A DNA stretch of 64,000 nt from Nannocystis sp. (lineage in GTDB: Bacteria; Myxococcota_A; Polyangia; Nannocystales; Nannocystaceae), in the NCBI RefSeq assembly GCF_016717175.1, contig NZ_JADKFZ010000004.1. One strand, 5' to 3'. Below the pieces are notes generated by a model. That model did not search any database and was not told where the DNA came from. It worked only from the letters and a program-made list of their open reading frames with translations. Within the stretch, counting starts at the first letter, position 1, and each line of letters begins with the position of its first letter. This document shows positions 2,558-18,015 of this stretch, one piece after another. The translations under genes were made by a program, and so were the position numbers.

Positions 2558-5170
2558 TCACTTCGGGACGACGCAGACCAGCAGGGGCTCGGTCTCGTTG
2601 TTGCTCTCCTTGCATTCGTTGAGGCCGCCCATGCCCTTGCCGTCGTCGTCGACGACCGCGTGGATGGTGACGGACTCGGTGACGTTCGGGACGCTGAGCG
2701 TGACCTGCTCGGCGGCGCCGGCCGCCAGCGGGCCCTTGGTGAACGCGGTGCCCAGGTAGCCCTTGTTCTGCTCGTAGAAGGACACGGGCACGCCCGGCCC
2801 GACGCCGAGGCAGCCGAGATTGGCGACCCACACGCTCATCGCAAGGTCGGGGCATTTGACGTAGTCGACGTCGAGGTCGTAGACCTGCAAGTCGGGGGCG
2901 CAGAAGGCCTTGGCGCCCTGGGCGTTGCGGCGGTAGCTGTTGTATGGATTCATCGCCGGCGTGGCCCAGCTCGGCGGCTCGGCGAGCGGGATCTCGCCGA
3001 CAAGGCCCACATTCGTGATGTGGTACGTATGTTGGTTCCACACGGGCCGGGTGGAGACCCAATTATCGAGTGAGTCGCCCCAGACCTCCAGGCCGCTGTC
3101 GAGCACGCCCGAGCCGCCGTCGTTGTTGGTCGGGAAGATGATCTCGGCCTTGAAATCGCCGTCGACGTCGGCGATGACGGGGTATTCGGTGCGGGTGCGC
3201 GAGCCGTTCTTGTCGCGGAACAGCACCTCGGCGTCGGTCATGTTGCCGTCGCACGCGGGGCCCTTGGGGTTCTTGAGGCAGTCGGGCTCGACGCCGGGGT
3301 AGATGCGCAGATAGACCTCATCGTTGTAGACGACCTCGTTACGGCCGTCGCCGTCGAAGTCGAAGACGGAGCTGCCCGTGACCTGGGAGGAGGTGTCATC
3401 GGTCGGGGCGCTCCACAGCTTGGTGAAGGTCGCCGCGCCGTCGTACTTGTAGACGATGTACTGGCTCGATCCGGCCGCCGCGACCTCGGGCTTACCGTCG
3501 CCGTCGAAGTCGGCGATGTTGGGCGGGCCGCCGGAGCCGCCGTTGGGGATCGGCGCCTCGGCCAGCTTGGCGCCGGTCAGGGGGTTTAGGGCGTAGATCT
3601 TGGCGCTGCCGACGATGATCACCTCGGGCTTCTTGTCGCCGTTGAAGTCGGCGACCCCGCAGAATCCGTCGACCACCGCGCTGTTCCACAGCTGCTTGAC
3701 GGTGAAGGTGTTGAGCGCGACCTTGCCCGAGAAGCCGAACGCGGTCTTACCGGCGATGAGCTCCTGGTAGCCGTCGCCGTCGAGGTCAGCGACGCAGCTG
3801 ATCGGGCCCTGACCGTTCTTGCCCTCGCCCTGTGTGCCCTCGAACAGCTTCTTGCCCTTCGAGTTGAAGATCGCGTCGGCGTAGATGACCTCGGCGTCGC
3901 CGTCGTTGTCGAGGTTGGCGATCGCCACGGCGCTGCTGACGTTGGCGGCCGTGAACACGTCGGACTTCCACAGCGGCGCACCGGTGCTGCTAAACGCCAG
4001 GATGTTCTTGCCTTCACCTGGGACCAGGATCTCGGGCTTACCGTCGTAGTCGAGGTCGCCGACCGCCGGGCTGGCGGTGCTGTTGGTGTCGTAGTTGGTG
4101 TCGGTGTTGGTGAAGATCTTGGCGCCGTTGTCGCCGCGGATGATGCGGAGCACCCCGTTGGTGTCGGGCTGGCCGGCGGTGTAGCTGTTGAAGATGATCT
4201 CCGGGACGCAGTCCTGATCGAGGTCCACCACCGCGGCCGTCGATGACGATTGGTTGAACGTTGGTCGGTCGTTGACGCCGATGTCGAGGTGCGGCCAGCC
4301 CGGCGTACACACCTTCTTGACGCAGGACTCGGCGGTCTGGCACTGGCTGTCCATTGTGCAAGCCACGACCTTGCGCTTGCCCCACGTGAATGTGGGGACC
4401 GGCTTGAAGGTCTGGGCCGGCGGCTTGTAGATGCAGTTGAGGTCGGCCTTCGACGGCAGGCAGAGCTTGAGCTCGGAGTCGCAGACATTGCCGATACCGC
4501 AGTCATTGGCGACCTTGGTCGCGCATTGCTGGGTGTCGCAGGCGTCGCCCGGCACCACGCATTCGCCGAGGTAACAGATCTCCTGATCGTTGCAGCAGTC
4601 CTGCTGCTGGCCGCAGGGTGGGGGACCGCCGCAGTCCTTTTGACATTGCGCCTCGATGCAGAGCTGGTCCGGGGCGCAGCACTCGTCGTTGCATTGCTTG
4701 TCGGGCGCACAACCCTGGCCGCCTGTGCTCCCCGAGGTGTCGGAGACCACGCCGCCGCTGCTGCCGGTCGACACCATCGTGTCGCTCTGGGCCCCGCCGG
4801 TGCTGCTGTTGGTGTCGCTGACGTTGCTCGTGCCGGGGTCGGTGTCGGGCAGCGTGGTGGCGGAGTCGGTGGTCGGGCCGCTGGTCGGTCCGGCCGAGGT
4901 CGGCCCCGTCGTGGGCTCGCTCATCGAGCCCTGGGAGGCCGAGCCCGTGCCCGTGGCTGAGTCGCTGACCGTCCCGCTCGCCTCTGTGGGTCCGGGGCCG
5001 GTCGGCGATGTGCCGCTGCTGCCCGCGCTGGTCCCGTCGGTGAAGCCACCGGTCATCCCGAAGGTGTCCGTCGTGCCCGTGGCGTCACCGCACGCGGTGA
5101 GCTGCGCGACTGTCAGGCCGAGCGAGACACGCACGACCACCCCATTCCATCCACCCCATGTCAGTACCAT
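2558..5170 (-). CDS. Secreted lipoprotein with FG-GAP (integrin-alpha beta-propeller) repeats, a Ser/Thr/Gly-rich linker and a Cys-rich module
   Basis: Lipoprotein signal MVLTWGG...LTVAQLTAC|G, then a long T/S/G low-complexity linker. The Cys-rich block reads CAPDKQCNDECCAPDQLC...CGGPPPCGQQQDCC. Repeated DxDxDG motifs follow (DLDQDCVPEI, DLDYDGKPEI, NLDNDGDAEV, DLDGDGYQEL, DFNGDKKPEV, DFDGDGKPEV, DFDGDGRNEV, DVDGDFKAEI). Start is chosen at the M that begins the signal peptide, not the poly-Ala upstream extension. Confidence 0.8.
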   Translation of the reverse strand: MVLTWGGWNGVVVRVSLGLTVAQLTACGDATGTTDTFGMTGGFTDGTSAGSSGTSPTGPGPTEASGTVSDSATGTGSASQGSMSEPTTGPTSAGPTSGPTTDSATTLPDTDPGTSNVSDTNSSTGGAQSDTMVSTGSSGGVVSDTSGSTGGQGCAPDKQCNDECCAPDQLCIEAQCQKDCGGPPPCGQQQDCCNDQEICYLGECVVPGDACDTQQCATKVANDCGIGNVCDSELKLCLPSKADLNCIYKPPAQTFKPVPTFTWGKRKVVACTMDSQCQTAESCVKKVCTPGWPHLDIGVNDRPTFNQSSSTAAVVDLDQDCVPEIIFNSYTAGQPDTNGVLRIIRGDNGAKIFTNTDTNYDTNSTASPAVGDLDYDGKPEILVPGEGKNILAFSSTGAPLWKSDVFTAANVSSAVAIANLDNDGDAEVIYADAIFNSKGKKLFEGTQGEGKNGQGPISCVADLDGDGYQELIAGKTAFGFSGKVALNTFTVKQLWNSAVVDGFCGVADFNGDKKPEVIIVGSAKIYALNPLTGAKLAEAPIPNGGSGGPPNIADFDGDGKPEVAAAGSSQYIVYKYDGAATFTKLWSAPTDDTSSQVTGSSVFDFDGDGRNEVVYNDEVYLRIYPGVEPDCLKNPKGPACDGNMTDAEVLFRDKNGSRTRTEYPVIADVDGDFKAEIIFPTNNDGGSGVLDSGLEVWGDSLDNWVSTRPVWNQHTYHITNVGLVGEIPLAEPPSWATPAMNPYNSYRRNAQGAKAFCAPDLQVYDLDVDYVKCPDLAMSVWVANLGCLGVGPGVPVSFYEQNKGYLGTAFTKGPLAAGAAEQVTLSVPNVTESVTIHAVVDDDGKGMGGLNECKESNNETEPLLVCVVPK

Positions 5171-5442
5171 CGGGCGAGCCTGACACGCGGCCGCGATCCA
5201 CACAAGCGTGCTGGTCTGGCCGACGCTGCATGTGACAGCGAGCGGTCGTGGCCGTCGCCGGCGTTCGTGCAGGCGCACGAATGAGCGCTCCGCGGCACGG
5301 GCACAGACACCTGCGGCTGCGGCCGCGGCTGCGGCTGCGGGCATCCGGGCCCTGATCTGTGGTTGCGGTCGCTTGACGAGCCCGCGACGACGAGGCTTGC
5401 GCGCCTATCACGGTGATATCATCCTGCCATCAGGAGGTTTTC

Positions 5443-6339
5443 ATGGCATCGATCCGCGAACATCGGGGCTTCACCCTCAACGGCTTCCTCGCGCTGGCGC
5501 TGTTCTTCGGGCTCGTCGCCTACGCCGGCAGCGTGGTCTACGAGGTCAGCACGGCCGCCGCGCTGCATGGCAACCCGCGCCCGCAGGACTTCATCCCGCT
5601 GTGGCAGGTCGGCGCCATCGGCCTGCTGCTGCTGATCTGCCTCGGCGGCTTCTTCGTCGTCCAGCCCAACGAGGCCCGCGTGCTGGTGTTCTTCGGCCGC
5701 TACGCCGGCAGCGTCGCCGACGCGGGCTTCTTCTTCGCCAACCCGCTGGCCGGGCGGCACACCATCAGCCTGCGGGTGCACAACTTCAACAGCGAGAAGC
5801 TCAAGGTCAACGACGCCCGCGGCAACCCGATCGAGATCGCCGCGGTGATCGTCTGGCGCGTCACGGATACCGCCCGGGCGCTGCTCGACGTCGAGAACTA
5901 CAAGGGCTTCGTCGCGGTGCAGTGCGAGACGGCGATCCGCGCGGTCGCGACTCGCTTCCCTTATGACAGCCACGACGGCGAGGATTCGCTGCGCAGCAAC
6001 CCCGACGAGGTGAGCGCCGCGCTCAAGACCGAGGTGCAGGCCCGCCTCGACGTCGCCGGCCTCGAGATCATCGAGGCCCGGCTGTCGCACCTCGCCTACG
6101 CCGCCGAGATCGCCCAGACCATGCTGCGCCGCCAGCAGGCCGAGGCGATCGTCGCGGCTCGCCGGCAGATCGTCGAGGGCGCGGTCGGCATGGTGGAGAT
6201 GGCGCTGCGCCGCCTGCAGGAGACGGGCGTCGTTCAGCTCGACGAGGAGCGCAAGGCCGGGATGGTCAACAACCTCCTGGTCGCGCTGGTCGCCGACCGC
6301 GAGGCCCAGCCGGTGATCAACACCGGAACCCTCTACTGA
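5443..6339 (+). CDS. SPFH/band-7 (stomatin/prohibitin-like) membrane protein
   Basis: N-terminal TM helices ([30 protein letters not shown]) precede an SPFH-like core ([14 protein letters not shown] ... [27 protein letters not shown]). AGGAGG sits 5 nt upstream of the ATG at 5443. Confidence 0.85.
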
Positions 6340-6352
6340 CGCCGGTGCCGTC

Positions 6353-6547
6353 ATGAGCGACAAGAAGCGCTTCCTCCTGCGCCTCGAGCCGGATCTCTAC
6401 GCCGCGCTCGAGCGCTGGGCCGCCGACGAGCTGCGCAGCGTCAACGGTCAGATCGAGTTCATCCTCAAGGAGGCGGCGCGCGGCAGCGGACGGCTGCGCG
6501 CGCCGGGTGAGGGCAAGGCCTCGCGGGGCCCGCCGCGGCCCCGTTGA
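6353..6547 (+). CDS. Arc/CopG-type ribbon-helix-helix DNA-binding protein
   Basis: [42 protein letters not shown] is the classic RHH pattern (beta strand FxLRL, then two helices). It lies 14 nt after the SPFH gene on the same strand. Confidence 0.6.
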
Positions 6548-6661: not shown

Positions 6662-9600
6662 ATGCGGCGGTCCATGCGACGTCCTGCACCCCGTAAGGCC
6701 GCGAGGCTCCGCCGCGCGGCGCTCCGTGCAACCGCCACCTTCGGCCTCGGCCTGAGCCTCCTGGCCTTCGGGACAGCCGAGGCCGCGCCCGCAGCTGGGC
6801 CCGCGTCGGCACCCGTGTCGGCACCCGTGTCGGGCTCTGGCGTCGCGCCGCCTTCTGCGGCCACGCCTGGCGCCGCGACGCTGTGGACGCCTGGCATCCG
6901 CGACGCCGCCCACCCGGGCCGCTTCGTCCGCGAGTTCGCCCGGCGCAAGGCCCTGCTGCGCGCCCCCGGTCCCGAGGCGGTGCTGGCACTGCTCGGCGCG
7001 ATGGTCGAGCTGCAGGGCGAGATCCCCGGCCTCGAGATGGCGGCCTTCCTCGACGGCGCCCGCAAGCACCGCGAGCCGCTGGTCGCCAGCCACGCCGGCT
7101 ACCTGCGCGCGCAGCTCGAGGAGGCCCGCGGCGATCAGGCGCGGGCCACCGCGATGTACCGCGCCGAGGGCTTCGTGCTCGACTGGCAGATCGTCGGCCC
7201 CTTCGAGAACACCGGGCGAGCCGGTCACGCAGCCGTCTACGCCCCCGAGACCGATCCCTTCTCCGCCGGTCAGAGCTTCGTCGGCAAGCTGCCCGGCGAG
7301 CCGCTGGTGTGGCGCCGCTTCGTCCACGAGCAGGCCCCGCGCGGCGCCTTCATCAACCTCGCCGACCTGCTCGACCCGCCCGAGCAGGCCGTCGGCTACG
7401 CGACCGTGTGGGTCAAGGTCGATCGGCCTGGTCGCGCCGCGCTGCACCTCGGCACCAGCGGCGCCTACAAGGTCTGGCACGACGGCGTCCTGGTCGGCAG
7501 CGACGACACCTACCGTACGCCGACGCCGCTGCAGGCCAGCCACGCGCTCGAGCTGCGCGCGGGCTGGAACCGCATCCTCATCAAGCTGGCCACCGACGAC
7601 GGCATGTGGGGCTTCTACGCCCGGCTCAGCGCCCCCGACGGCCGCCCGCTCGCCGGTCTGGTGAGCACCCTCGAGCCGCAGTCGACGCCCGTGTCGCCTG
7701 GCGCGAAGGACAGGTCCGTTAGCACAGGTCCGAAGGGACAGGTCGCAAAGGCCAGCCCCGGCGCGGGCGGCGTCGCCAGCAGCCCGGTCGGCGTCGGCCG
7801 CCCCGGCGCGGGCGGCGTCGCCAGCAGCCCGGTCGGCGTCGGCCGCCCCGGCGTGCGCAGCCTGCGGGCCGCGCTCGAGGCGAAGGGGCAGGGGCCGCGC
7901 GCGCGCCCGGCCGACCGCCTCGCGCTGGTCGAGTTCTACCGCTGGACCTTGCCGTTTGCCCGCGAGGACCGCAGCGCCGTCGACCGCGCCCGCGAGGCCG
8001 ACAGCGCGCTGGGCACCGCTCGCAGCGCGTACCTGCTGGCGACCCTCGACCCCGACCAGAACAACAGCCGCGTCGCCCTGCAGCGCGCCGTCGAACGCGC
8101 CCGCGCTGAAGGGTCCGGCTCCCGGGAGGGCGGCGCCCCGCTGCTGGCCACGCTCCTGGTCGAGCTCTCGCTGCGCGACCGTTACCTCGGCCTCGAGTCG
8201 CGGGCGCGGGCGCTGCTCGACGAGGCCTTCCGCACCGCGCCCGACGACGTCATCGTCGAGCTCGCGCTGGCCGAGCGACTCTCGGAGGACGGCTTCCCGC
8301 TGGCCGCGCTGGCCTGGGTCGGCGACATGCAGCGGCGCTACCCGGACTCGGCGATCCTGGCCCGTCAGCAGGCCGAGCGGCGCATGAACCTCGGCCGCAC
8401 CGAGGAGGCGCTGCAGATCCTCGGCACCCTGCAGGGCGCCCAGCCGACCGACCTCGGCGTCGCCGCGGAGATGCAGGACGGCCTGCTCCGGCTCGGCCGC
8501 GCCGACGAGGCGGTGGCGATCGCCCGCGAGCGCGTGCGTCTGGTCCCCGGCCTGCCCGAGAGCCACCGCGCCCTGGCCCGCTTCGAGGAGGCCCGCGGCG
8601 ACCTCGCGGCCGCCCGCGCGGCGATGCAGCGGGCCGCCGATCTGGCCCCGCACGACGCCGACATCCACGCCCAGATCGGCCGCCTCGCCGCGCGCGCGGG
8701 CGACGTCTCGGCCGCGATCCAGAGCGTGCGCCGCTCGCTCGAGCTGCGCCCGCAGCAGCCCGACCTCCGCGACTTCCTGGCGACCCTCGACCAGGGCGCG
8801 CGCGACGACCTGCTCGCCCGCTACCCCGTCGACCTCGAGGAGCTCGCGGCCATCCCGACACCGGCGGCGTGGAAGGGCAAGGACGCCGGCATTCTGCTCG
8901 CGCGCACGGCCGTGCGCGTGCTCCCCAACGGCCTCAGCGAGCGCCTCGACCACCGCGTCATCCGCGTGCTCGACGACCGCGGCATCCGCTCGCAGGCGAT
9001 GCAGGGCGTCGTGTTCGACCCGGCCGAGGCCTACGTCGAGGTCCGCCGCGCCCGCGTGCGCCGGGCCGAGGGCGGGGTCGAGGAGATCGGCGACGCCAGC
9101 GTCGTCGCCCTCACCGACGCCGGTTACCGCATGTTCTACGACCAGCGCCAGCAGCGGGTCACCTTCAACGGCCTGCGCGTGGGTGACACCCTCGAGGTCG
9201 CGTTTGTCCGCCGGGACACCGCGGCGCGCAACAAGTTCGACGACTACTTCGGCGAGATCGCGGCCCTCGAGGACGTGCTGCCGCAGCGCCGCCGCGAGTA
9301 CATCCTCGAGGCGCCGGCGGGGCGCAAGCTGTACTTCAACCAGCCCGTCGAGGCCAGCCCCGGCAAGGAGCCCGGCACGACGCTCTACAAGCTGGTGGTC
9401 GGCGAGCGCAAGGGCATCCGCCCCGAGGCCAACATGCCCGGCTGGACCGAGATCGCCAAGTACCTCCACGTCAGCACCTTCGCCGACTGGGACGCCGTCG
9501 GTCGCTGGTACTGGAACCTCGTCAAGGAGCAGCTGGTCGTCGACGCCAAGATCCGCGCGGCCGTCAACGAGGTCCTGCTCGGCCTGCCCGAGGGCGCCGA

Positions 9601-10657
9601 CGAGCGAGCCAAGGTGCGCGCGCTCTACAAGCACGTGATCACCAGCACCCGCTACGTCGGCCTCGAGTTCGGCATCCACGGCTTCAAGCCCTACCGCACC
9701 ACCGACGTCTACGACCGCCGCTTCGGCGACTGCAAGGACAAGGCGAGCCTGCTCAAGGTGATGCTCGCCGAGGCCGGCATCGCGTCGAACCTCGTGCTGG
9801 TGCGCACCCGCGATCAGGGCACGATCGGCGCCACGCCGGCCTCGCTGTCCGCGTTCAACCACGCCATCACCTACGTCCCGAGCCTCGATCTCTACCTCGA
9901 CGGCACCGCCGAGTTCTCCGGCCCGGAGGAGCTGCCGACCGGCGATCAGGGCGCGACCGTGTTGATCGTCCGCGACGGCGCCGGCGCCGAGCTGCGCACG
10001 ATCCCGACCAGCAAGCCCGGTGACAACGCCCAGACGATCCGCCAGACCATCGCCCTCGCGGCCGACGGCAGCGCCCGCGTGCAGCACGAGCTCACCGTCA
10101 CCGGCGCCGGCGCGGCCGGCTGGCGCAGCATTTTACAGAGCGCCGACAACCGCAAGGAGCGGCTCACTCATGCGTGGGGCGGCCAGTTCCCGGGCGTGGT
10201 CGTCGCCGACATCGAGGCGCCGACGCTCGGCGACGTGCTGCTGCCGGTCAAGCTGCGCAGCAGCTGGCAGGTGCCGAGCTGGGCCCAGACCCAGGGCGAC
10301 GGCCTGCGCTTCCCGGCGCTCGGCTACCGCACCGGCCTCACGCGCCAGCTCGCCGGGCAGGCCAAGCGCGAGCACGACCTCGTGATGGCCGCGCCGTCGA
10401 TCGAGGACAGCCAGCTCGCGTACCAGCTGCCCCGGGGCTGGAAGATCGTCCAGGCCCCCGCCGACAAGCAGATCGACACGCCGCTGGCGAGCTTCAGTCT
10501 GCGCGTCGAGCAGAAGGGCGACACGGCCCAGGTCAGCACCCACATCGAGTACCGCAAGTCCCGCTTCACGCCCGCCGAGTACCGGGCCCTGCGCGACTTC
10601 CTCAGCCAGGTCGACGGCAGCCTCGATCAGGTGTTCGAGATCCGTCCGGAGCGCTAG
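6662..10657 (+). CDS. Large secreted TPR-repeat protein with DUF3857-like and transglutaminase-like (Cys-protease fold) domains
   Basis: Signal peptide (LGLSLLAFGTAEA|AP), an N-terminal beta-sandwich-like region, and multiple TPR-like helical repeats are present. The transglutaminase-like core retains the catalytic Cys (RFGDCKDKASLLKVMLAEAGIASNLVLVRTRDQG). Length is 1331 aa. Confidence 0.85.
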   Translation: MRRSMRRPAPRKAARLRRAALRATATFGLGLSLLAFGTAEAAPAAGPASAPVSAPVSGSGVAPPSAATPGAATLWTPGIRDAAHPGRFVREFARRKALLRAPGPEAVLALLGAMVELQGEIPGLEMAAFLDGARKHREPLVASHAGYLRAQLEEARGDQARATAMYRAEGFVLDWQIVGPFENTGRAGHAAVYAPETDPFSAGQSFVGKLPGEPLVWRRFVHEQAPRGAFINLADLLDPPEQAVGYATVWVKVDRPGRAALHLGTSGAYKVWHDGVLVGSDDTYRTPTPLQASHALELRAGWNRILIKLATDDGMWGFYARLSAPDGRPLAGLVSTLEPQSTPVSPGAKDRSVSTGPKGQVAKASPGAGGVASSPVGVGRPGAGGVASSPVGVGRPGVRSLRAALEAKGQGPRARPADRLALVEFYRWTLPFAREDRSAVDRAREADSALGTARSAYLLATLDPDQNNSRVALQRAVERARAEGSGSREGGAPLLATLLVELSLRDRYLGLESRARALLDEAFRTAPDDVIVELALAERLSEDGFPLAALAWVGDMQRRYPDSAILARQQAERRMNLGRTEEALQILGTLQGAQPTDLGVAAEMQDGLLRLGRADEAVAIARERVRLVPGLPESHRALARFEEARGDLAAARAAMQRAADLAPHDADIHAQIGRLAARAGDVSAAIQSVRRSLELRPQQPDLRDFLATLDQGARDDLLARYPVDLEELAAIPTPAAWKGKDAGILLARTAVRVLPNGLSERLDHRVIRVLDDRGIRSQAMQGVVFDPAEAYVEVRRARVRRAEGGVEEIGDASVVALTDAGYRMFYDQRQQRVTFNGLRVGDTLEVAFVRRDTAARNKFDDYFGEIAALEDVLPQRRREYILEAPAGRKLYFNQPVEASPGKEPGTTLYKLVVGERKGIRPEANMPGWTEIAKYLHVSTFADWDAVGRWYWNLVKEQLVVDAKIRAAVNEVLLGLPEGADERAKVRALYKHVITSTRYVGLEFGIHGFKPYRTTDVYDRRFGDCKDKASLLKVMLAEAGIASNLVLVRTRDQGTIGATPASLSAFNHAITYVPSLDLYLDGTAEFSGPEELPTGDQGATVLIVRDGAGAELRTIPTSKPGDNAQTIRQTIALAADGSARVQHELTVTGAGAAGWRSILQSADNRKERLTHAWGGQFPGVVVADIEAPTLGDVLLPVKLRSSWQVPSWAQTQGDGLRFPALGYRTGLTRQLAGQAKREHDLVMAAPSIEDSQLAYQLPRGWKIVQAPADKQIDTPLASFSLRVEQKGDTAQVSTHIEYRKSRFTPAEYRALRDFLSQVDGSLDQVFEIRPER
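7757..7846 (+). repeat. Perfect 45-bp direct tandem duplication, in frame, inside the CDS at 6662..10657 (encodes PGAGGVASSPVGVGR twice)
   Basis: ccccggcgcgggcggcgtcgccagcagcccggtcggcgtcggccg is repeated back-to-back, seen directly in the sequence. Confidence 0.85.
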
Positions 10658-10664
10658 GCAACCC

Positions 10665-13600
10665 ATGTCATTCCCGTCCGCACCTGTCCTTCGGGCCATG
10701 TTGTCCTTCGCCGCGATCGCGGCCCCGATCTCGCTGCCGGCGTGCAAGCACAAGGCCGAGACCACGCAGGCGCCGTTCACCGCCGACGCCGCCCGCCAGC
10801 GCGCCGCGGAGCTCGAGCGTCAGCTCGTCAAGCAGCCGCAGGACGACGTCGCCGCGCTCGAGCTGGCCAACCTGCAGTGGTTGCACCTGCGGGCCACCGC
10901 GAAGGCGCTCCCCACCTTCGATCGCCTGGCCGCGCGGGGCAACCCCTACGCCCAGGTCGCGCGCATGATCATCGCCGACGCGCGCCTCGACCTCGTCACC
11001 GTGCGCAGCATGGCCCACGCGCTGATCAAGGGCGCCGCCGCGGCGCCGGGCCTCGCCCCTGCCGATGTCGCCGAGCGGGCCGCGCTGGCCGAGCTCGGCG
11101 CCCGCTACATCGGCGAGAACCACGGCGAGCTGCCCGACGACGACCTCGACTTCACGCGCTTCTTCGCGGAGGTGGAGCGCCTGCCGCTCCCGGTCGCCGT
11201 CACCCAGCCGCTGCTGAGCCAGCGCGCAAGCATCGCTCGCCGCCTCGATCAGCCCTACCTGGCCTACTACGAGGCTCAGGGCTGCGTGCGCGCCTGGCAG
11301 GTCGGCAAGGTCGAGGGCCACCTCGAGGCCTTCGAGCTGCGCCGCGCCGCGGCCGACCCCGCCGCGTTCGAGCTCGACCCGCAGGCCGTGCTCACGCCGC
11401 TGTCCTGCGTCGTCCGCACCTGGAACCCGACCCCGCGCGCCGGCATGCGGCGCATGCGAAGCTACCTCGACGTCCCTGGCGAGCAGCTCACCCTCAACAT
11501 CAGCAGTCAGGAGGCGGTCCGCGTCTACCTCGACGGCGCGCCGATCCACCGCAGCGACCGCAGCGACCGCTGGCCCCGCGGCGACAACACCCTCGAGCTC
11601 AAACTACAGCCTGGCATCCACCGCCTCGACGTCCACACCGCCGTGCCGCGCGAGAAGGTCTGGGTCCTGGTCCGCGCCACCGACCACCGCGGTCAGGCCG
11701 TGCCGGCCAGCGTCGAGGCGAAGGGCCCGCTGGCCCCGGCCTTCACGGGTCAGCCCGTGCGCCCGCGTTCGCCGTTCTTCCCATATGCACAGGGCCCGAT
11801 CGCCGGCCCGAGTTACGCGCCGCTGCGCATGCTGCTGGCCGCCTCCGACGCGATGGCCGACGCCAACAGCGACGACGCCGAGGGCTTCATCAAGGCGCTG
11901 CGCCACGCGGGCCCGAACTTCGCCGAGGGCGAGCTGCTGGTCGCGGCCTTCGAGACCGGCGACCCCACGCGTGACCGCAGCACCTCGACGGCGCGCCAGC
12001 GGGCGGCGATCGAGCGGGCCCTGGCGATCGACCCGGGCCTCGCCCGCGCGAGGATCCGCCTGCTCGAGATGGGCCTCGAGCGCGGCGAGACCAGCGAGGT
12101 CCTCGACGCCGTCACCGCGCTCGGCGACAAGGCCCTGCGCAACGTCCCGGGCGAGCTGCTGCGCTACCAGGCCTACCTCGCCCGCGGCAACGAGTTCCAG
12201 TCCGACGCGGCCCTGGCCCGCGCCGCCGCGATCCACCCGGAGCACTGCGCGGTGCTCAAGGCCCAGCGCGTGGTGGCCCAGCGCCGCGGCGACGTCGCGG
12301 CCGAGGACGCGCTCTCCGCGAAGGTCGAGACCTGCCCCGGCACCACCGGTACGCGCGCCCGCCTGGCCGCGCGCCGCGGTCGCCGCGACGAGGCCCGCGC
12401 GCTCTACAAGAAGCTGCTCGAGCGCACCCCCGACGACGTCGACGTGATGGCCGAGCTCGCCGAGCTGGCGATCAGCGAGGACAAGCTCGACGAGGCCCTC
12501 GGCTACCGGCGCAAGATCCTCGGCCTGAACCCCTACGCGACCAGCATGCACGTCGCCATCGCCGACCTCCAGGCGCGCATGGGCGACCCCGCGGCCGCGC
12601 GCGCCAGCGTCGGCGAGGCGCTGGTCCGGGTCCCGCAGAGCATGGCGATGTGGCAGGTCGCGCAGAACATCGGCATCCCGGACGACCTCGAGGCGCTGCG
12701 CGTCGACGGCCTGCCGATCGTCGCGGCCTACCGCGCCGGCAAGCACGACCACGCCGGCGTCGGCGAGGTGCTGGTGCTCGACCGCAGCGTCACCCGCGTG
12801 TACCCCGACGGCAGCCAGCGCCACATCATCCACACGATCACCGAGCTGCGCTCCAAGGAGGCGATCGACCGCTACGGGGAGATCGAGCCGCGCGAGGGGA
12901 CCCGCACGCTCACGCTGCACAGCATCAAGGCCGACGGCCGCGTGTTCGAGCCGGAGTCGATCCCCGAGAAGGACGGCCTCAGCCTGCGCGGCCTGCAGAT
13001 CGGCGACTTCGTCGAGTACGAATTCATGTTCGAGCGCGAGGAGCTCGGCCTGCTCCCGGGCTACGTCGACCTCTCGACCTTCCGCTTCCAGTCGCCCGAG
13101 ACCCCGTTCCACATCTCGGAGATGATCGTCGCCTACCCGAGCGACATGCCGCTCAAGGCCGAGCTCCGGGCCGGCGCGCCGCAGGCCGTGGTCACCCGTC
13201 TCGCTGCGGTCGCTGGCCTCGCTGCGGGCGCTGGCCAGGGCGAGCTCACCGTGCAGCACTGGCGCGTCGACCGTTCGCCGCGCCTCGGCGTCGAGCCGCA
13301 GATGCGCAACAGCCTGTTCGAGGTCCCGAACGTGCGCGTGTACAGCGACGTCGACACCGCCGCGTGGCTGTCGGCGCTGGGCCTGCGCATCTACACCGGC
13401 CAGCGCAGCAACCTCGAGCTGCGCCAGCTGACCCGCAAGCTGATCGCCGGCAAGACCTCGCCGCGCGCCCGCCTGGAGGCGCTGCACCGCTGGGTCGTCG
13501 AGAACGTCGAGGAGGTCGGCGAGCTCACCGTGCCGGCCACGCTCACGCTCTCGGCGCGCAAGGGCAGCGGCATGATCCTGCTCAAGACCATGCTGCGCGA

Positions 13601-14516
13601 GGCCGGCCTGCGCGCGGAGCTGTGGATCGCCCGCGACAACTTCGGCGCCGACATCAAGCCCGGCGGCAACCCGCTGTTCGAGTCCTACGATTCGCCCTAC
13701 CTGGCCGTTTGGACAGGTGAGGGCGAGACCCCGACGATGGTCATCACCGGCTCCAAGGTGCTGCCGCTCGGCTACCTCGTGCCCGGCCTCTCGGGCGCGG
13801 CCGGCTTTCGCATCCCGCTCAGTGAGAGCGACAAGGCGCCCGGCGCCGTGCGCTTCCCGGTCCGGCCCGCCGCGCTCGCGGACCGCCGCAGCTACCGCGT
13901 CCGCCTCGAGCTCGGCCGCGACGGCAGCGGCCGCGTCGAGGGCAGCATCGAGCTGCAGGGCATGGAGGCCGCGGCCTGGCGCGACGTGCTGCGAAACCTC
14001 GACCGCGACCGCATCAACGACGGCTTCGAGCGGGCCGAGCTGTCGGTGCTGTTCCCCGGCGCCACGGTCGAGCTCGCGGACCTGCAGATCGAGCAGGAGA
14101 AGCAGCTGGACGCCCCGCTGCGCCTGATCTTCCAGGGCGGCATCCGCGGCGCCGTGGTGGCCCAGGGCGGCGAGCTGCTGATGCGCGCCGCGACCGTGCC
14201 GCTCAACGTCGGCCTCGGCTACACGGCGCTGCCCGAGCGCAAGACCGGCTACGCGATCCCCTACGCGCCGTTGCTCGATGCCGAGGTGACGATCCAGATC
14301 GCCGGGGCCAAGTTCACCGGCACGCCCAGCGCCGAGACGATCGACACGCCGCAGGGCAGCTACCACCGCAGCGTCGAGGTCGGCGCGGAGGGCCTGACCG
14401 TGCGCACGCGTGCGACTCTCGGCACCGGCGTGTTCGGCCCCGAGGTCTACCCCGCGCTCGCCAGCCTGACCCGCCGGGTCAAGGCCGCCGAGGACCAGGT
14501 CATCCGCGCCCGCTGA
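10665..14516 (+). CDS. Paralog of the upstream TPR/DUF3857/transglutaminase-like protein; the transglutaminase-like core lacks the catalytic Cys
   Basis: Same overall architecture (1283 aa, TPR-rich middle, C-terminal DUF3857/TGase-like region), starting 8 bp after the previous gene. The core motif reads LSARKGSGMILLKTMLREAGLRAELWIARDNFG, where the catalytic Cys is replaced. Signal or lipobox: LPAC. Confidence 0.85.
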   Translation: MSFPSAPVLRAMLSFAAIAAPISLPACKHKAETTQAPFTADAARQRAAELERQLVKQPQDDVAALELANLQWLHLRATAKALPTFDRLAARGNPYAQVARMIIADARLDLVTVRSMAHALIKGAAAAPGLAPADVAERAALAELGARYIGENHGELPDDDLDFTRFFAEVERLPLPVAVTQPLLSQRASIARRLDQPYLAYYEAQGCVRAWQVGKVEGHLEAFELRRAAADPAAFELDPQAVLTPLSCVVRTWNPTPRAGMRRMRSYLDVPGEQLTLNISSQEAVRVYLDGAPIHRSDRSDRWPRGDNTLELKLQPGIHRLDVHTAVPREKVWVLVRATDHRGQAVPASVEAKGPLAPAFTGQPVRPRSPFFPYAQGPIAGPSYAPLRMLLAASDAMADANSDDAEGFIKALRHAGPNFAEGELLVAAFETGDPTRDRSTSTARQRAAIERALAIDPGLARARIRLLEMGLERGETSEVLDAVTALGDKALRNVPGELLRYQAYLARGNEFQSDAALARAAAIHPEHCAVLKAQRVVAQRRGDVAAEDALSAKVETCPGTTGTRARLAARRGRRDEARALYKKLLERTPDDVDVMAELAELAISEDKLDEALGYRRKILGLNPYATSMHVAIADLQARMGDPAAARASVGEALVRVPQSMAMWQVAQNIGIPDDLEALRVDGLPIVAAYRAGKHDHAGVGEVLVLDRSVTRVYPDGSQRHIIHTITELRSKEAIDRYGEIEPREGTRTLTLHSIKADGRVFEPESIPEKDGLSLRGLQIGDFVEYEFMFEREELGLLPGYVDLSTFRFQSPETPFHISEMIVAYPSDMPLKAELRAGAPQAVVTRLAAVAGLAAGAGQGELTVQHWRVDRSPRLGVEPQMRNSLFEVPNVRVYSDVDTAAWLSALGLRIYTGQRSNLELRQLTRKLIAGKTSPRARLEALHRWVVENVEEVGELTVPATLTLSARKGSGMILLKTMLREAGLRAELWIARDNFGADIKPGGNPLFESYDSPYLAVWTGEGETPTMVITGSKVLPLGYLVPGLSGAAGFRIPLSESDKAPGAVRFPVRPAALADRRSYRVRLELGRDGSGRVEGSIELQGMEAAAWRDVLRNLDRDRINDGFERAELSVLFPGATVELADLQIEQEKQLDAPLRLIFQGGIRGAVVAQGGELLMRAATVPLNVGLGYTALPERKTGYAIPYAPLLDAEVTIQIAGAKFTGTPSAETIDTPQGSYHRSVEVGAEGLTVRTRATLGTGVFGPEVYPALASLTRRVKAAEDQVIRAR

Positions 14517-14555
14517 GGCGTTGCCGCAGTCGCGCGGACGGGCGACGATGCCCCG

Positions 14556-15830
14556 ATGTCCCCCCGCGTCCCCCTGGTCCTCCTCCTCGCCCACGCGGGC
14601 GCCTGCGGATCGTCGTCGGAAGCCTCGACCACCGGCGACGTGAGCAGCAGCAGCGGCGAGAGCAGCAGCGGCGAGCCCGTCACACCGACCACCGGCGAGG
14701 CCGCGACCGGCAGCGACGACAGCACGAGCAGCGCAGGCAGCGACGCGAGCAGCGGCGGCTCACTCGCCACCAGTGACACCGGCGACACCGGCGAGACCAG
14801 CGACACCGGTGATCCGGGCATCGTCTACCCCGAGCCCGACTGGCAGCCCGGCGATCCGATGGCGCACGGCTTCGACCCCGCGGGCCTCGCCGGCATGGCC
14901 GCGCTCGCCGAGTCGAGCGACTCGAACTGCCTGGTCGTCACCCAGGGCGGCGCCTTGATCGGCGAGTGGTACTGGAACGGCTTCGACGCGGCCAAGAAGC
15001 AGGACAACGTCTACTCGGTCACCAAGTCGGTCACCAGCGCTCTCGTCGGCGTCGCCGCCGAAGAGGGCCTGCTCGACATCGAGGCTCCGGTCGGCTTCAC
15101 CGAGTGGGCCGGCAGCGACAGCGAGGCGGTGACGATCCGCAACCTCATCAGCAACAACTCGGGGCGCGAGTGGAGCTTCAACAGCGACTACATCGCCATG
15201 GGCGTCGCCCCCGACCAGACCCAGTTCGCCCTCGACCTCGGCCAGGACAAGCCGGTGGGCACCTTCTGGGAGTACAACAACGCCGCGATCCAGACCCTGG
15301 AGCGCGCGCTCAAGACGGCCACCGCCGGGCCGCTCGGGGACTACGCCCAGAGCCGACTGTTCGACGCGATCCACATGAGCGCCGACATGGGCAAGGACGG
15401 CGAGGGCAACGCGCTGACCTACCAGGGCGTCTCGGCGTCGTGCCGCGATCTGGCGCGCTTCGGCTACCTCTACCTGCGCGGCGGCACCTGGGCCGATGAC
15501 GTCCAGGTCGTCCCCGCCGCGTGGGTCAGCGCCACGATCACGCCGAGCACCGCCTTCAACAGCGCCTACGGGTACATGTGGTGGCTCAATCGCCCGGGCC
15601 ACTGGATCTTGCCCTCGGTGCCGCTGCGCACCGAGGGCGACGGCAAGCTGATCCCCGCGGCGCCCGACGAGGTGTTCGCGGCGATCGGCGCCTTCGGTCA
15701 GTTCGTGGTCGTCGATCCCACCACCGATTCGGTGTGGGTGCGACTCGGGCCGATCGACCTCGGCGACGCGTCGGGCTTCGGCAAGCTCAATGCGCTGTGG
15801 GACGCCTTCGAGGCGGCGCAAATTCCGTAG
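14556..15830 (+). CDS. Beta-lactamase / PBP-family serine hydrolase lipoprotein
   Basis: Lipoprotein signal (LLLAHAGAC|GSS) and a Ser/Thr/Gly-rich linker are followed by an SxxK active-site motif (YSVTKSVTSALVGVAAEEG) typical of class-C beta-lactamase / D-Ala-D-Ala carboxypeptidase-like enzymes. Confidence 0.85.
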   Translation: MSPRVPLVLLLAHAGACGSSSEASTTGDVSSSSGESSSGEPVTPTTGEAATGSDDSTSSAGSDASSGGSLATSDTGDTGETSDTGDPGIVYPEPDWQPGDPMAHGFDPAGLAGMAALAESSDSNCLVVTQGGALIGEWYWNGFDAAKKQDNVYSVTKSVTSALVGVAAEEGLLDIEAPVGFTEWAGSDSEAVTIRNLISNNSGREWSFNSDYIAMGVAPDQTQFALDLGQDKPVGTFWEYNNAAIQTLERALKTATAGPLGDYAQSRLFDAIHMSADMGKDGEGNALTYQGVSASCRDLARFGYLYLRGGTWADDVQVVPAAWVSATITPSTAFNSAYGYMWWLNRPGHWILPSVPLRTEGDGKLIPAAPDEVFAAIGAFGQFVVVDPTTDSVWVRLGPIDLGDASGFGKLNALWDAFEAAQIP

Positions 15831-15857
15831 ACGTCGTAGAAGCCGTGGCCGCAGGGC

Positions 15858-16597: not shown

Positions 16598-17983
16598 CTA
16601 GACCTTGAGGCCCGCGAGCGGTCCGGTGCTGTCGTCGCCGAAGCTCGGCGTGGGCACCTCGAAGGCCTCGGCGATCGAGATGAAGAGGTTGGCGAGCGGG
16701 GTCTTGTCCGGGACCTTGAGGTGGCGGCCCGGCGTGATCGCGCCGCCGAGCTTGCCGGCGACCAGCACGGGCAGGTCATCGTGGTTGTGGGCGTTGCCGT
16801 CCGCGATCTCCGAGCTCAGATAGACCACGGTGTTGTCGAGCAGGGTGCCGTCGCCGTCGGGGCTGTCCTTGAGCTTCTGCAGCAGTTTGGCGAACTGCGC
16901 GACCTCCCAGGTGTCGATGATCTCGAGCTTGGCGAAGTTCTCGGGCAGGTCCTGGTGGTGGCTGATCTCGTGGTGGGCCCCCGGGGCGCCGATGAACGCG
17001 TGGTCGCGGCCGCTGCCGGCGTTCTCGAGCATGAAGGAGATGACGCGGGTCTGGTCGCACTGCAGCGACAGCACCATCAGCTCGGTCATGAGGTCGACGT
17101 GGGTCGCGTGGTCCTGGTAGGCGCCGGAGAACATCGCCGGCAGCTCGCAGACGGCCTCGGTCTTCTCGTTGCTGACCCGCTTCTCGAGGTCGCGCAGGCC
17201 GGTCAGATATTGCTCGAGCTTGTCGCGGTCGGTCTTGCCGAGCTTCTTCTGCAGATCGAGCACCTGGTCGTTGGCGTAGTCGATGACGCTGAGGCGGTTG
17301 GCGCGGCGGATCGCCAGCTGCTCGGCGGTCGCGTCGGGGTCGAAGCCGGAGAACAGCAGGTCGAAGATCACCTGCGGGTCGGACAGCTTGGGCAGCGGCG
17401 TCTTCGGGTCGGCCCACGAGATGTTGCTGGTGTAGGCGCACGAGTAGCCGCTGTCGCAGTTGCCCATGGTGCCGCCGCTGGCGGTGCCGAACTGCAGCGA
17501 GCGGTGCGGCGTCGCGTCGCCGATCTGGTTGGCGATCAGCTGGTCGATCGAGATGTTGTTGACGAAGTCGACCTCGGACTTGAGCACGTGCGTGCAGGTG
17601 AGGAAGGCCGAGGTGCCGCCGGCGTGGTCGCCGGGGCCCTCCGGCTTGGCCGGCAGGTTGGCCAGGCCGCTCAGGACCAGCACGTCGCCCTTGAGGTCGA
17701 CCATCGCGTTGGCGTCGACCAGCGGCGCCAGGATCTTGGTGAGCGCGTAGTCGGGGCCCTCGCTGGCCGGGGTCCACGAGGGCATGTGGATGCCGCAGGG
17801 CAGGTAATAGAACAGGGCGCGCAGCGGCGAGGGCATCGGCGCTGCGCTGGCCCGACTACCAAATTGGCCGCCCGTCTTGGGCGCGAGCGCCTCGAGCCAG
17901 GGCAGGGCGATCAGGGCGCCGGCGCCTCCGAGCATGGCCCGGCGAGACAGAGTGCGGCGAGGAGGGGTGGAGCTGCGCGTCAT
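16598..17983 (-). CDS. DUF1552-family protein with a twin-arginine-like signal
   Basis: MTRSSTPPRRTLSRRAMLGGAGALIALPWLEALA is RR-type. The body matches DUF1552 proteins, the usual partner of DUF1592/1588 proteins. AGGAGA RBS upstream. The ATGA-free start at 17983 was chosen over the Arg-rich upstream extension. Confidence 0.85.
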   Translation of the reverse strand: MTRSSTPPRRTLSRRAMLGGAGALIALPWLEALAPKTGGQFGSRASAAPMPSPLRALFYYLPCGIHMPSWTPASEGPDYALTKILAPLVDANAMVDLKGDVLVLSGLANLPAKPEGPGDHAGGTSAFLTCTHVLKSEVDFVNNISIDQLIANQIGDATPHRSLQFGTASGGTMGNCDSGYSCAYTSNISWADPKTPLPKLSDPQVIFDLLFSGFDPDATAEQLAIRRANRLSVIDYANDQVLDLQKKLGKTDRDKLEQYLTGLRDLEKRVSNEKTEAVCELPAMFSGAYQDHATHVDLMTELMVLSLQCDQTRVISFMLENAGSGRDHAFIGAPGAHHEISHHQDLPENFAKLEIIDTWEVAQFAKLLQKLKDSPDGDGTLLDNTVVYLSSEIADGNAHNHDDLPVLVAGKLGGAITPGRHLKVPDKTPLANLFISIAEAFEVPTPSFGDDSTGPLAGLKV

Positions 17984-18015
17984 GGTGGTGGTTCTCCTGG
18001 GCTCGCGGGCGCGGT

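What the first reader, a model, noticed from the sequence alone, without database searches (positions are those of the whole stretch)
6662..15830. Operon of two giant TPR/DUF3857/transglutaminase-like paralogs, one with and one without the catalytic Cys, followed by a beta-lactamase-family serine hydrolase
Two ~1,300-aa secreted proteins lie 8 bp apart and share architecture. The first keeps the transglutaminase/cysteine-protease Cys (GDCKDKASLL). The second has ARKGSGMILL at the same position, making it a pseudo-enzyme partner. A lipoprotein serine hydrolase (SVTK) follows 40 bp later. An active/inactive tandem pair plus a peptidase-like hydrolase suggests a dedicated extracellular peptide or cell-wall cross-linking or processing machine. 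The function of this combination is unknown.
Basis: partly seen in the sequence, partly recalled or inferred. Interest (0 to 1): 0.6.

Follow-up and report, generated by a model that had tools for sequence, protein, structure and literature searches.

The report
Active/dead transglutaminase-fold envelope protein pair
Two adjacent giant genes encode an exported cysteine enzyme and a lipid-anchored, catalytically dead copy of it; the pair is conserved and translationally coupled across much of the myxobacteria, its function is unknown, and the beta-lactamase-like gene behind it is only a recent local addition.

Summary
Gene A (6662-10657, 1331 aa), gene B (10665-14516, 1283 aa) and gene C (14556-15830, 424 aa) lie on one strand, with gaps of 7 and 39 nt.

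A keeps an invariant Cys1024-His1067-Asp1080 triad, and Cys1024 is its only cysteine. B has short deletions at the Cys and His sites. All 44 B relatives examined lack the Cys. B is consistently a lipoprotein.

A and B form separate clades, so they come from one old duplication. B sits directly downstream of A in 46 of 66 informative Myxococcota loci. In 20 of 35 scorable loci its start overlaps A's stop by 4 nt. Cultured Myxococcaceae, Sorangium and Polyangium have A alone.

Gene C is absent from all 81 related loci searched. It appears only in a 97%-identical strain, and 85-86% relatives lack it. So the pair is a module and the triad is not.

My best reading, which is inferred, is an exported cysteine hydrolase held or regulated at the membrane by its dead paralog. 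The substrate is unknown, and I found no functional literature.

The parts
6662..10657 (+). Gene A: exported 1331-aa protein. Order of domains: signal peptide, helical region, jelly-roll, linker, TPR, DUF3857, transglutaminase-like core, DUF3858. This is the catalytic member of the pair.
   Evidence: ORF. Pfam domains. 75 homologs, down to 27% identity, with the same length and architecture. More than 592 genomic matches.
6662..6784 (+). Sec-type signal peptide of A (residues 1-41, ...AFGTAEA|AP).
   Evidence: Read from the translation. A-family N-termini mostly have a hydrophobic core followed by an AxA site and no lipobox. No signal-peptide predictor was available.
7184..7669 (+). Jelly-roll beta-sandwich of A (residues about 175-336, starting at WQIVGPFEN). 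It belongs to the galactose-binding-domain-like / GH2 sugar-binding / PA14 fold class.
8189..8791 (+). TPR repeat region of A (residues about 510-710).
   Evidence: Pfam TPR_14, TPR_19 and TPR_16; NCBIfam TPR-protein models below their cut-offs. TPR proteins in PDB.
8924..9379 (+). DUF3857 beta domain of A (residues 755-906).
   Evidence: Pfam PF12969, 72.5 bits against a cut-off of 24.6. Part of the 3kd4-like module.
9599..9961 (+). Transglutaminase-like cysteine-hydrolase core of A. Cys1024 is at 9731-9733, His1067 at 9860-9862 and Asp1080 at 9899-9901.
   Evidence: Pfam PF01841, 23.2 bits against a cut-off of 23.0. C1024, H1067 and D1080 are invariant in 28 of 28 sequences. In the model, Cys opens helix 310-323, His opens strand 353-358 and Asp follows strand 363-365. 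Cys1024 is the only Cys in A.
10361..10609 (+). DUF3858 C-terminal beta domain of A (residues 1234-1316).
   Evidence: Pfam PF12970, 35.2 bits against a cut-off of 27. Direct phmmer hit to 3kd4.
10665..14516 (+). Gene B: 1283-aa lipoprotein, a full-length paralog of A with a dead catalytic site (pseudoenzyme).
   Evidence: hhalign against the A family: probability 100%, E 2e-69. 45 homologs. Directly downstream of A in 46 of 66 informative loci. B is monophyletic.
10665..10745 (+). Lipoprotein signal peptide of B, with lipobox LPAC. Cys27 is at 10743-10745 and Lys is at +2.
   Evidence: Cys27 is invariant in 23 of 23 B-family sequences. A lipobox was found in 35 of 44 genomic B genes. In M. 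xanthus, +2 Lys marks inner-membrane lipoproteins (PMC3222651).
13554..13583 (+). Degenerate active-site remnant of B (ARKGSGMILL, residues 964-973). It aligns with A's FGDCKDKASLL, with the D-C-K triplet deleted.
   Evidence: hhalign alignment. The same xG[S/N]R pattern without Cys occurs in all 44 B genes.
14556..15830 (+). Gene C: lipoprotein-like serine hydrolase of the beta-lactamase family (SVTK 154-157, YNN 240-242). It is probably co-transcribed with A and B here, but it is a recent, lineage-specific addition and not part of the conserved module.
   Evidence: Pfam PF00144, 88.7 bits. Closest solved structures are 8rlj, Lsa45 and NylB. Absent from 81 related loci and from the L082 and L086 relatives. 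Present only in the 97%-identical strain L085.

Best explanation
Genes A and B form a self-contained two-gene envelope module that arose from one ancient tandem duplication within Myxococcota.

A is exported by a Sec signal. It is a competent transglutaminase-fold cysteine enzyme, most likely a hydrolase (peptidase, isopeptidase or amidase). Its 3kd4-like catalytic module is preceded by a sugar-binding-type jelly-roll and a TPR scaffold, which probably select the substrate.

B has the same architecture but lost the nucleophile and the His loop long ago. It carries an N-terminal lipid anchor. It is made in step with A by translational coupling.

The most likely mechanism is a membrane-tethered heterodimer in which B positions, stabilises or gates A on the periplasmic face of a membrane. 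In the Nannocystaceae-type lineage the +2 Lys/Arg suggests the inner membrane. This would resemble other active/inactive paralog pairs, such as the alpha/beta subunits of M16B peptidases.

Shown here:
- the homology of A and B;
- the intact triad in A and the dead site in B;
- the lipobox in B;
- co-conservation, gene overlap and the single duplication.

Inferred:
- physical complex formation;
- hydrolysis rather than cross-linking;
- localisation;
- a glycan-associated substrate.

Gene C is an unrelated beta-lactamase-family hydrolase that recently landed at the 3' end of the operon in this species.
For: Homology and fold:
- Full-length paralogy, hhalign E 2e-69 over 1077 columns.

A looks catalytically competent:
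- C1024, H1067 and D1080 are invariant in 28 of 28 sequences.
- They sit at the canonical positions: start of a helix, a strand, and the next strand.
- A has a single Cys, the nucleophile, and most close orthologs also have one.

B looks catalytically dead:
- All 44 B genes lack Cys at the site.
- B has deletions at the Cys and His loops.

B's other features:
- Its lipobox Cys is invariant.
- It has four further conserved Cys, suggesting two disulfides and so an oxidising compartment.

Co-conservation and coupling:
- B follows A on the same strand in 46 of 66 loci with at least 3 kb of downstream sequence. These include Nannocystaceae, Polyangiales, Haliangiales, Bradymonadales and Anaeromyxobacter.
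- The pair also occurs in a MAG labelled Planctomycetes.
- B's start overlaps A's stop by 4 nt in 20 of 35 scorable loci.
- A and B are reciprocally monophyletic, and B evolves faster (0.77 against 0.63).
- No other neighbouring gene is conserved.

Jelly-roll:
Against: - No experiment or complex prediction shows that A and B bind each other.
- Twenty of 66 loci have A without an adjacent B. These are Myxococcus, Corallococcus, Pyxidicoccus, Archangium, Sorangium and Polyangium.
- A search seeded with a Myxococcia B found Anaeromyxobacter but no Myxococcus homolog. A can therefore work without B.
- In B-less lineages A does not clearly gain its own lipobox, which a pure anchoring role would predict (inconclusive).
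- The fold cannot separate protease, isopeptidase, amidase and transglutaminase chemistry.
- The jelly-roll fold also mediates protein contacts, so glycan binding is only a lead.
- The +2 Lys sorting rule was established in M. xanthus, not in Nannocystaceae. Other lineages have Gly, Ala or Ser at +2.
Confidence: 0.5

Rival explanations
1. A, B and C together form one dedicated extracellular cross-linking or processing machine.
For: The three genes are co-directional, with gaps of 7 and 39 nt and no terminator-like site between them. The A-B-C order also occurs in a 97%-identical strain. C has lipoprotein-like export signals and intact SxxK and YxN motifs.
Against: No homolog of C was found in 81 related loci (phmmer E <= 1e-5). 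In relatives at 85-86% identity, the position after B holds nothing or a minus-strand Ser/Thr kinase, within otherwise syntenic flanks. C resembles generic NylB/EstB-type hydrolases.
Confidence: 0.07
2. A and B do not form a complex. B is a stand-alone, membrane-anchored binding protein or receptor that reuses the old scaffold (TPR, jelly-roll and dead core). It acts in the same pathway as A, or in an unrelated one. The adjacency is a remnant of the tandem duplication, kept for co-regulation.
For: A occurs without B in 20 of 66 loci and in cultured Myxococcaceae. In L053 B lies 3.6 kb away from A. B evolves faster than A. B keeps its own set of invariant residues in the DUF3857 region.
Against: The 4-nt stop/start overlap in 20 of 35 loci, and near-abutting genes in most others, are typical of subunits made in fixed ratio. 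The A-to-B order and strand are kept across deep lineages. A-A and B-B distances track each other with r = 0.95, although shared phylogeny alone could produce this.
Confidence: 0.25
3. A is a true transglutaminase that cross-links envelope or matrix proteins (Gln-Lys isopeptide formation) rather than a hydrolase. B would supply or present the substrate.
Confidence: 0.15
4. B is still an enzyme that uses a relocated catalytic set.
For: B keeps several invariant polar residues (D706, H723, K755, D781) in its DUF3857 region.
Against: No conserved Cys lies within 400 residues of the core. B's conserved Cys residues are the lipobox Cys27 and the pairs 207/248 and 528/557, in the jelly-roll and TPR regions. 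The Cys and His loops are deleted in every B examined. The conserved G-D motif of DUF3857 is shared with A, so it looks structural.
Confidence: 0.03

Closest known systems
PDB 3kd4 (BDI_1141, Parabacteroides distasonis 'putative protease'): the structure behind Pfam DUF3857 and DUF3858
   Different: Identity is only 17%. 3kd4 is about 500 aa and lacks the roughly 700-residue N-terminal extension seen here (helical region, jelly-roll, TPR). Its function is also unknown, and I found no functional paper. I do not know whether 3kd4-type genes also come as active/dead pairs.
LapG / BTLCP periplasmic transglutaminase-like cysteine proteases (PMC3032545, PMC4359373)
   Different: No match to the LapG Pfam family appeared in the scan. 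There are no LapD, LapA or T1SS genes nearby, and no conserved neighbours at all. LapG is about 200 aa, and its regulator is not a dead paralog.
Active/inactive paralog pairs encoded by adjacent genes, for example the M16B peptidase alpha/beta heterodimers (from general knowledge, not tested here)
   Same: Tandem paralogs of equal size, only one with catalytic residues, with abutting or overlapping genes.
   Different: The fold and chemistry are unrelated (zinc metallopeptidase). Heterodimer formation is proven for M16B and only inferred here. B also carries a lipid anchor.
TPR lipoprotein adaptors of periplasmic proteases, for example NlpI with Prc (from general knowledge, not tested here)
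   Same: A TPR-containing lipoprotein that holds or directs a soluble periplasmic protease.
   Different: NlpI is small and unrelated to its protease. B is a full-length dead copy of the enzyme.
NylB / EstB-type class C beta-lactamase-related serine hydrolases (applies to gene C only)
   Same: PF00144 at 88.7 bits, SVTK and YNN motifs. Best PDB matches are 8rlj (E 1.6e-15), Lsa45 and 6-aminohexanoate-dimer hydrolase.
   Different: It has a lipoprotein signal and an 85-residue Ser/Thr/Gly/Asp-rich linker. It reaches no equivalog-level NCBIfam cut-off. It is not linked to the A-B module outside this species.

Membership tests
Transglutaminase-like cysteine protease superfamily (Pfam PF01841 / clan CA): gene A | Catalytic Cys at the N-terminus of a helix, with His and Asp on the two following beta strands, all conserved | tested here: met
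   C1024, H1067 and D1080 are invariant in 28 of 28 sequences. In the model, Cys is residue 310 and opens helix 310-323, His 353 opens strand 353-358, and Asp 366 follows strand 363-365.
Transglutaminase-like cysteine protease superfamily (Pfam PF01841 / clan CA): gene A | Sequence and fold match to the family | tested here: met
Transglutaminase-like cysteine protease superfamily: gene B | Cys-His-Asp triad present | tested here: not met
   The D-C-K triplet and the His loop are deleted in the hhalign alignment. No Cys is present at the site in any of 44 B genes. B is a homolog of the fold but not an enzyme of the family.
3kd4-like DUF3857 / Transglut_core / DUF3858 module | All three domains in order, and structural superposition on 3kd4 | tested here: met
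LapG / BTLCP family | Match to the LapG family model, and a LapD-type receptor or RTX adhesin partner nearby | tested here: not met
   Only PF01841 appeared in the Pfam scan down to E 0.1. No conserved neighbouring genes.
Bacterial lipoprotein: gene B | Signal peptide ending in a lipobox with an invariant Cys at +1 | tested here: met
   LPAC with Cys27, invariant in 23 of 23 sequences. A lipobox was placed in 35 of 44 genomic B genes. Actual lipidation cannot be tested here.
Co-translated heteromeric enzyme/pseudoenzyme pair | Adjacent paralogs, conserved order, overlapping stop and start codons | tested here: met
   46 of 66 loci have B downstream. The overlap is 4 nt in 20 of 35 loci.
Co-translated heteromeric enzyme/pseudoenzyme pair | Physical A-B complex | not testable with these tools
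Three-gene A-B-C operon as a functional unit | Co-conservation of C with A and B | tested here: not met
   0 of 81 loci carry a C homolog. C is absent in L082 and L086 and present only in L085, which is 97% identical.
Beta-lactamase / PBP-like serine hydrolase (PF00144): gene C | SxxK and YxN motifs and a family model match; a third K/H-T/S-G motif | tested here: met
   PF00144 at 88.7 bits against a cut-off of 27. SVTK is at 154-157 and YNN at 240-242. The third motif is only a loose A-F-G at 379-381, so that element is inconclusive.
Galactose-binding-domain-like / GH2 sugar-binding / PA14 jelly-roll: N-terminal domain of A | Fold match | tested here: met
Galactose-binding-domain-like / GH2 sugar-binding / PA14 jelly-roll: N-terminal domain of A | Actual carbohydrate binding | not testable with these tools
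   No ligand-site analysis was possible, because model coordinates are not exposed.

The most novel reading that the evidence does not exclude
The A-B pair is a previously unrecognised, phylum-wide two-subunit envelope machine of Myxococcota. A lipid-anchored pseudoenzyme paralog docks and gates a single-cysteine transglutaminase-fold hydrolase. The hydrolase uses a lectin-like jelly-roll and TPR arms to process a glycan-associated envelope or matrix substrate, such as peptidoglycan-linked or exopolysaccharide-linked proteins. This would be a new class of regulated periplasmic proteolysis or isopeptidolysis, and it would give a first function to the very large DUF3857/DUF3858 family.
Probability: 0.3. 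Interest if true: 0.6.

Novelty: new variant of a known kind. Interest (0 to 1): 0.4.

Why it matters
The DUF3857 / transglutaminase / DUF3858 module is very common. The search found 17,276 cluster representatives at E <= 1e-3. It has had a crystal structure since 2009, yet I found no paper on its function.

This work shows three things about the myxobacterial form:
- It is a 1,250-1,350-aa protein with a lectin-like domain and TPRs.
- It usually comes as a translationally coupled pair with a lipid-anchored dead paralog, which current annotation calls only 'TPR protein' or 'hypothetical'.
- The catalytic subunit carries one cysteine.

Together these give a concrete, testable handle. Possible experiments are a Cys1024 mutant, an activity-based probe, an A-B pull-down and a B deletion.

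The beta-lactamase-family gene should not be built into models of the system.

The finding does not overturn anything and does not identify a substrate, so its value lies in generating hypotheses.

Tried and rejected
1. Gene-neighbourhood clustering of 4,482 flanking ORFs from 81 loci. This found only lineage-specific synteny and no third conserved partner. One example is a UbiA-like membrane protein lying divergently upstream in 14 loci.
2. Literature searches for DUF3857, DUF3858, PF12969, PF12970, 3KD4, and transglutaminase with Myxococcus or MXAN. None returned a functional study. 3KD4 is only listed as a superfamily member in the vasohibin paper PMC4866520.
3. A test of whether A gains its own lipobox in lineages that lack B, which would support a pure anchoring role for B. 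The result was inconclusive. Myxococcus-type A N-termini read ...FVLTCPLWAQA, which is more likely an AxA Sec site.
4. A look-up of the Anaeromyxobacter paludicola A gene by exact sequence. It was not on record. The pair in that genome was instead inferred from both proteins sharing the same 4.59-Mb contig length.
5. NCBIfam scans. They gave only sub-threshold TPR-protein hits (PrsT, PgaA, GltE, Tgl, LapB), which reflect the TPR repeats and not orthology.
6. Promoter and terminator consensus scans. They were uninformative in this 72%-GC DNA.
7. The mirror-tree correlation (r = 0.95) between A and B distances. I do not count it as evidence of interaction, because shared phylogeny explains it.
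8. An active-site geometry check from coordinates. This was not possible, so only secondary-structure positions were used.
Full report
**1. What is in the window**

- A: 6662-10657, 1331 aa.
- B: 10665-14516, 1283 aa.
- C: 14556-15830, 424 aa.

Seven nt separate A's stop from B's ATG, and 39 nt separate B's stop from C's ATG. The quoted motifs are present. GDCKDKASLL is A residues 1022-1031, ARKGSGMILL is B residues 964-973, and SVTK is C residues 154-157.

Pfam results:
- A: TPR repeats, DUF3857 (72.5 bits), Transglut_core (23.2 bits against a cut-off of 23.0) and DUF3858 (35.2 bits).
- B: TPR only.
- C: Beta-lactamase, PF00144 (88.7 bits).

The DNA is about 72% GC. The closest named relatives are Nannocystis and other Nannocystaceae.

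**2. A and B are full-length paralogs, one live and one dead**

BLASTP detects only the C-terminal 330 residues (27% identity, E 2e-10) and the TPR region. I built a 28-sequence A-family alignment and a 23-sequence B-family alignment. Profile-profile comparison of these gives probability 100% and E 2e-69 over 1077 columns, pairing A 114-1329 with B 149-1283. The two proteins therefore share the whole architecture, not just one domain.

In the A family, C1024 (within G-D-C-K-D), H1067 and D1080 are invariant. In the alignment, B lacks the three residues D-C-K and has a five-residue gap where A's F-N-H-A-I sits. No conserved Cys, His or Asp replaces them.

I extracted 44 B genes from genomes across the phylum. 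Every one has x-G-[S/N]-R at this spot and no Cys.

Window A contains one cysteine in 1331 residues, and it is Cys1024. Most close orthologs also have exactly one. B has five. One is the lipobox Cys27. The others form two conserved pairs, 207/248 in the jelly-roll and 528/557 in the TPR region. These look like disulfides and point to an oxidising compartment.

**3. Structures**

In the model, Cys1024 opens a helix, and His1067 and Asp1080 lie on the next two strands. This is the canonical topology of the fold.

The resulting architecture is: signal, helical region, lectin-like jelly-roll, low-complexity linker, TPR, DUF3857, transglutaminase core, DUF3858.

**4. Export signals**

A-family N-termini are Sec-type, with a hydrophobic core and an AxA site. 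Every aligned B has a lipobox, and Cys27 is invariant. A lipobox could be placed in 35 of 44 genomic B genes.

In the Nannocystaceae-type clade the +2 residue is Lys or Arg. In Polyangiales and other lineages it is Gly, Ala or Ser. In Myxococcus xanthus, +2 Lys marks inner-membrane lipoproteins (PMC3222651). Applying that rule here is an extrapolation.

**5. Conservation and linkage**

A scan of one genome per GTDB species found more than 592 A relatives, and the 80 best loci were kept. Nearly all of these are labelled Myxococcota or their older names. They include Myxococcus, Corallococcus, Pyxidicoccus, Archangium, Sorangium, Polyangium, Labilithrix, Haliangiales, Bradymonadales, Anaeromyxobacter and Nannocystaceae.

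I scored all ORFs in these loci against A and B profiles. Of 66 loci with at least 3 kb downstream of A, 46 carry B immediately downstream on the same strand. A MAG labelled Planctomycetes has the same pair, with a 4-nt overlap.

Where B's start could be placed, it overlaps A's stop by 4 nt (ATGA or GTGA) in 20 of 35 loci. In most of the rest it lies within about 15 nt. This is the classical signature of translational coupling.

In a neighbour-joining tree of the C-terminal 620 residues, 71 A and 43 B sequences are reciprocally monophyletic. B is the faster-evolving branch, with a mean distance of 0.77 against 0.63 over the same 40 loci. One ancient duplication followed by losses is the simplest history.

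The 20 loci without B are Myxococcaceae in the strict sense, Sorangium, Polyangium and some MAGs. A search seeded with a Myxococcia-type B recovered Anaeromyxobacter species but no Myxococcus or Corallococcus protein. B therefore seems to be truly lost in those lineages.

No other gene is consistently linked to the pair.

**6. Gene C is a passenger**

phmmer with C found nothing in the 81 loci. The window's flanks are syntenic with two relatives at 85-86% identity. The shared order is FG-GAP protein, Band_7, a small RHH gene, A, B, then a convergent 210-aa gene, DUF1552 and DUF1592/DUF1588.

In those relatives, the slot after B is empty (L086) or holds a minus-strand Ser/Thr kinase (L082). L082 also has a P450 gene inserted before A. 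Only a 97%-identical strain has C after B (L085).

C itself is a generic NylB/EstB-type hydrolase related to class C beta-lactamases. Its best PDB matches are 8rlj (E 1.6e-15), Lsa45 and NylB. It has a lipoprotein-like signal and a long Ser/Thr/Gly/Asp-rich linker. It is probably co-transcribed with A and B here, but it is not part of the conserved system.

**7. Mechanism**

Shown:
- A has every sequence and fold hallmark of an active Cys-His-Asp enzyme that is exported.
- B is an ancient, conserved, lipid-anchored dead copy.
- The two genes are usually co-translated.

Inferred:
- A and B form a membrane-tethered heterodimer in which B positions, stabilises or gates A.
- A is a hydrolase (protease, isopeptidase or amidase) rather than a cross-linker. 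Its nearest characterised neighbour is the periplasmic protease LapG, and to my knowledge most minimal bacterial cores of this fold are hydrolases.
- The lectin-like jelly-roll and the TPR arms select a glycan-associated envelope or matrix substrate.

I put about 0.5 on this overall picture. I am much more confident in the live/dead assignment (above 0.85) and in the exclusion of C (about 0.9) than in complex formation (about 0.45).

The main counter-evidence is that A exists without B in several lineages. I also found no sign that A compensates there with its own lipid anchor (inconclusive).

**8. Comparison with known systems**

The C-terminal module is a member of the 3kd4-type DUF3857 / Transglut_core / DUF3858 family, and all three features were tested and met.

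It is not a LapG/BTLCP family member. No such model matched, and there is no LapD or LapA partner. It may nonetheless work in a similar way, as a periplasmic cysteine protease controlled by a membrane partner.

The live/dead adjacent-paralog arrangement resembles M16B peptidase alpha/beta pairs. The TPR-lipoprotein-plus-protease idea resembles NlpI with Prc. Both are analogies from general knowledge and were not tested.

**9. Novelty and verdict**

The families are catalogued but uncharacterised. I found no functional paper. The module is abundant, with 17,276 representatives at E <= 1e-3 and 1,317 at E <= 1e-30.

Several points appear to be unreported:
- The myxobacterial 'TPR protein' or 'hypothetical protein' downstream is a dead, lipid-anchored paralog.
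- The pair is phylum-wide and translationally coupled.
- The N-terminus carries a lectin-like domain.
- The enzyme has a single cysteine.

I classify this as a new variant of a known kind. It is useful for generating hypotheses, has no substrate or phenotype yet, and is of moderate interest (0.4).

Noticed in passing
window 7750-7853 (inside gene A, linker between jelly-roll and TPR): A 45-bp in-frame tandem duplication, 2.3 copies at 98% identity, encoding GRPGAGGVASSPVGV repeats. It lies in a low-complexity stretch that varies in length among orthologs, so it is probably a recent slippage expansion in a disordered linker.
   Followed up: partly
window 5413-6336 (+) and 6353-6547 (+): A Band_7/SPFH protein (308 aa) and a 64-aa CopG-like ribbon-helix-helix protein lie directly upstream of gene A. 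The same two genes precede the pair in relatives L082 and L086. They are absent from more distant loci, so this is local synteny rather than part of the module.
   Followed up: partly
window about 14517-15857, compared with L082 17777-19126 and L086 11793-11861; also L082 8668-9966: Both ends of the A-B cassette are sites of gene gain among close relatives. After B there is a beta-lactamase-family gene here and in L085, a Ser/Thr kinase in L082, and nothing in L086. A P450 gene is inserted before A in L082 only.
   Followed up: yes
window 16598-18511 (-) and 18016-20184 (-): A convergent downstream pair: DUF1552 (HXXSHH) and a DUF1587/1595/1592/1588/1585 (PSD/PSCyt) protein with an inserted CBM60. 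This is the gene pair of unknown function first described in planctomycetes. The listed ORFs overlap, so the true DUF1552 start is probably later, giving about 462 aa as in L082 and L086.
   Followed up: no
L043 (BNCN01000002.1, labelled Comamonas sp. KCTC 72670), 10001-13471: This 969-kb contig carries an A ortholog whose N-terminus matches that of Myxococcus sp. Y35 (L049) almost exactly. The record looks like a mislabelled or contaminated Myxococcus-type assembly. Similarly, MAGs labelled Thermoanaerobaculia, Acidobacteria and Planctomycetes carry the pair (L056, L063, L083). These may be binning errors or real spread outside the phylum.
   Followed up: no
L006, L007, L009, L011, L012, L014, L015 and others, just upstream of A on the minus strand: In 14 loci a UbiA-type prenyltransferase-like membrane protein of about 300 aa (motif NDLVDVEADREHPKKRHRPIASG) is transcribed divergently from A. 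L001 has a LysR-type regulator in that position instead. Neither is present in the window.
   Followed up: partly
window 14556-14840 (N-terminal part of gene C): After the lipobox, C has a linker of about 85 residues made of Ser, Thr, Gly, Asp and Glu. It contains short DNA tandem repeats (14646-14675 and 14775-14809), typical of a flexible tether between the lipid anchor and the enzyme domain.
   Followed up: no
window 2558-5344 (-): A large FG-GAP/VCBS-repeat protein (928 aa) lies upstream on the opposite strand and is syntenic in L082 and L086. In those relatives a GAF-histidine kinase sits between it and Band_7. I did not check whether the window has this kinase.
   Followed up: no
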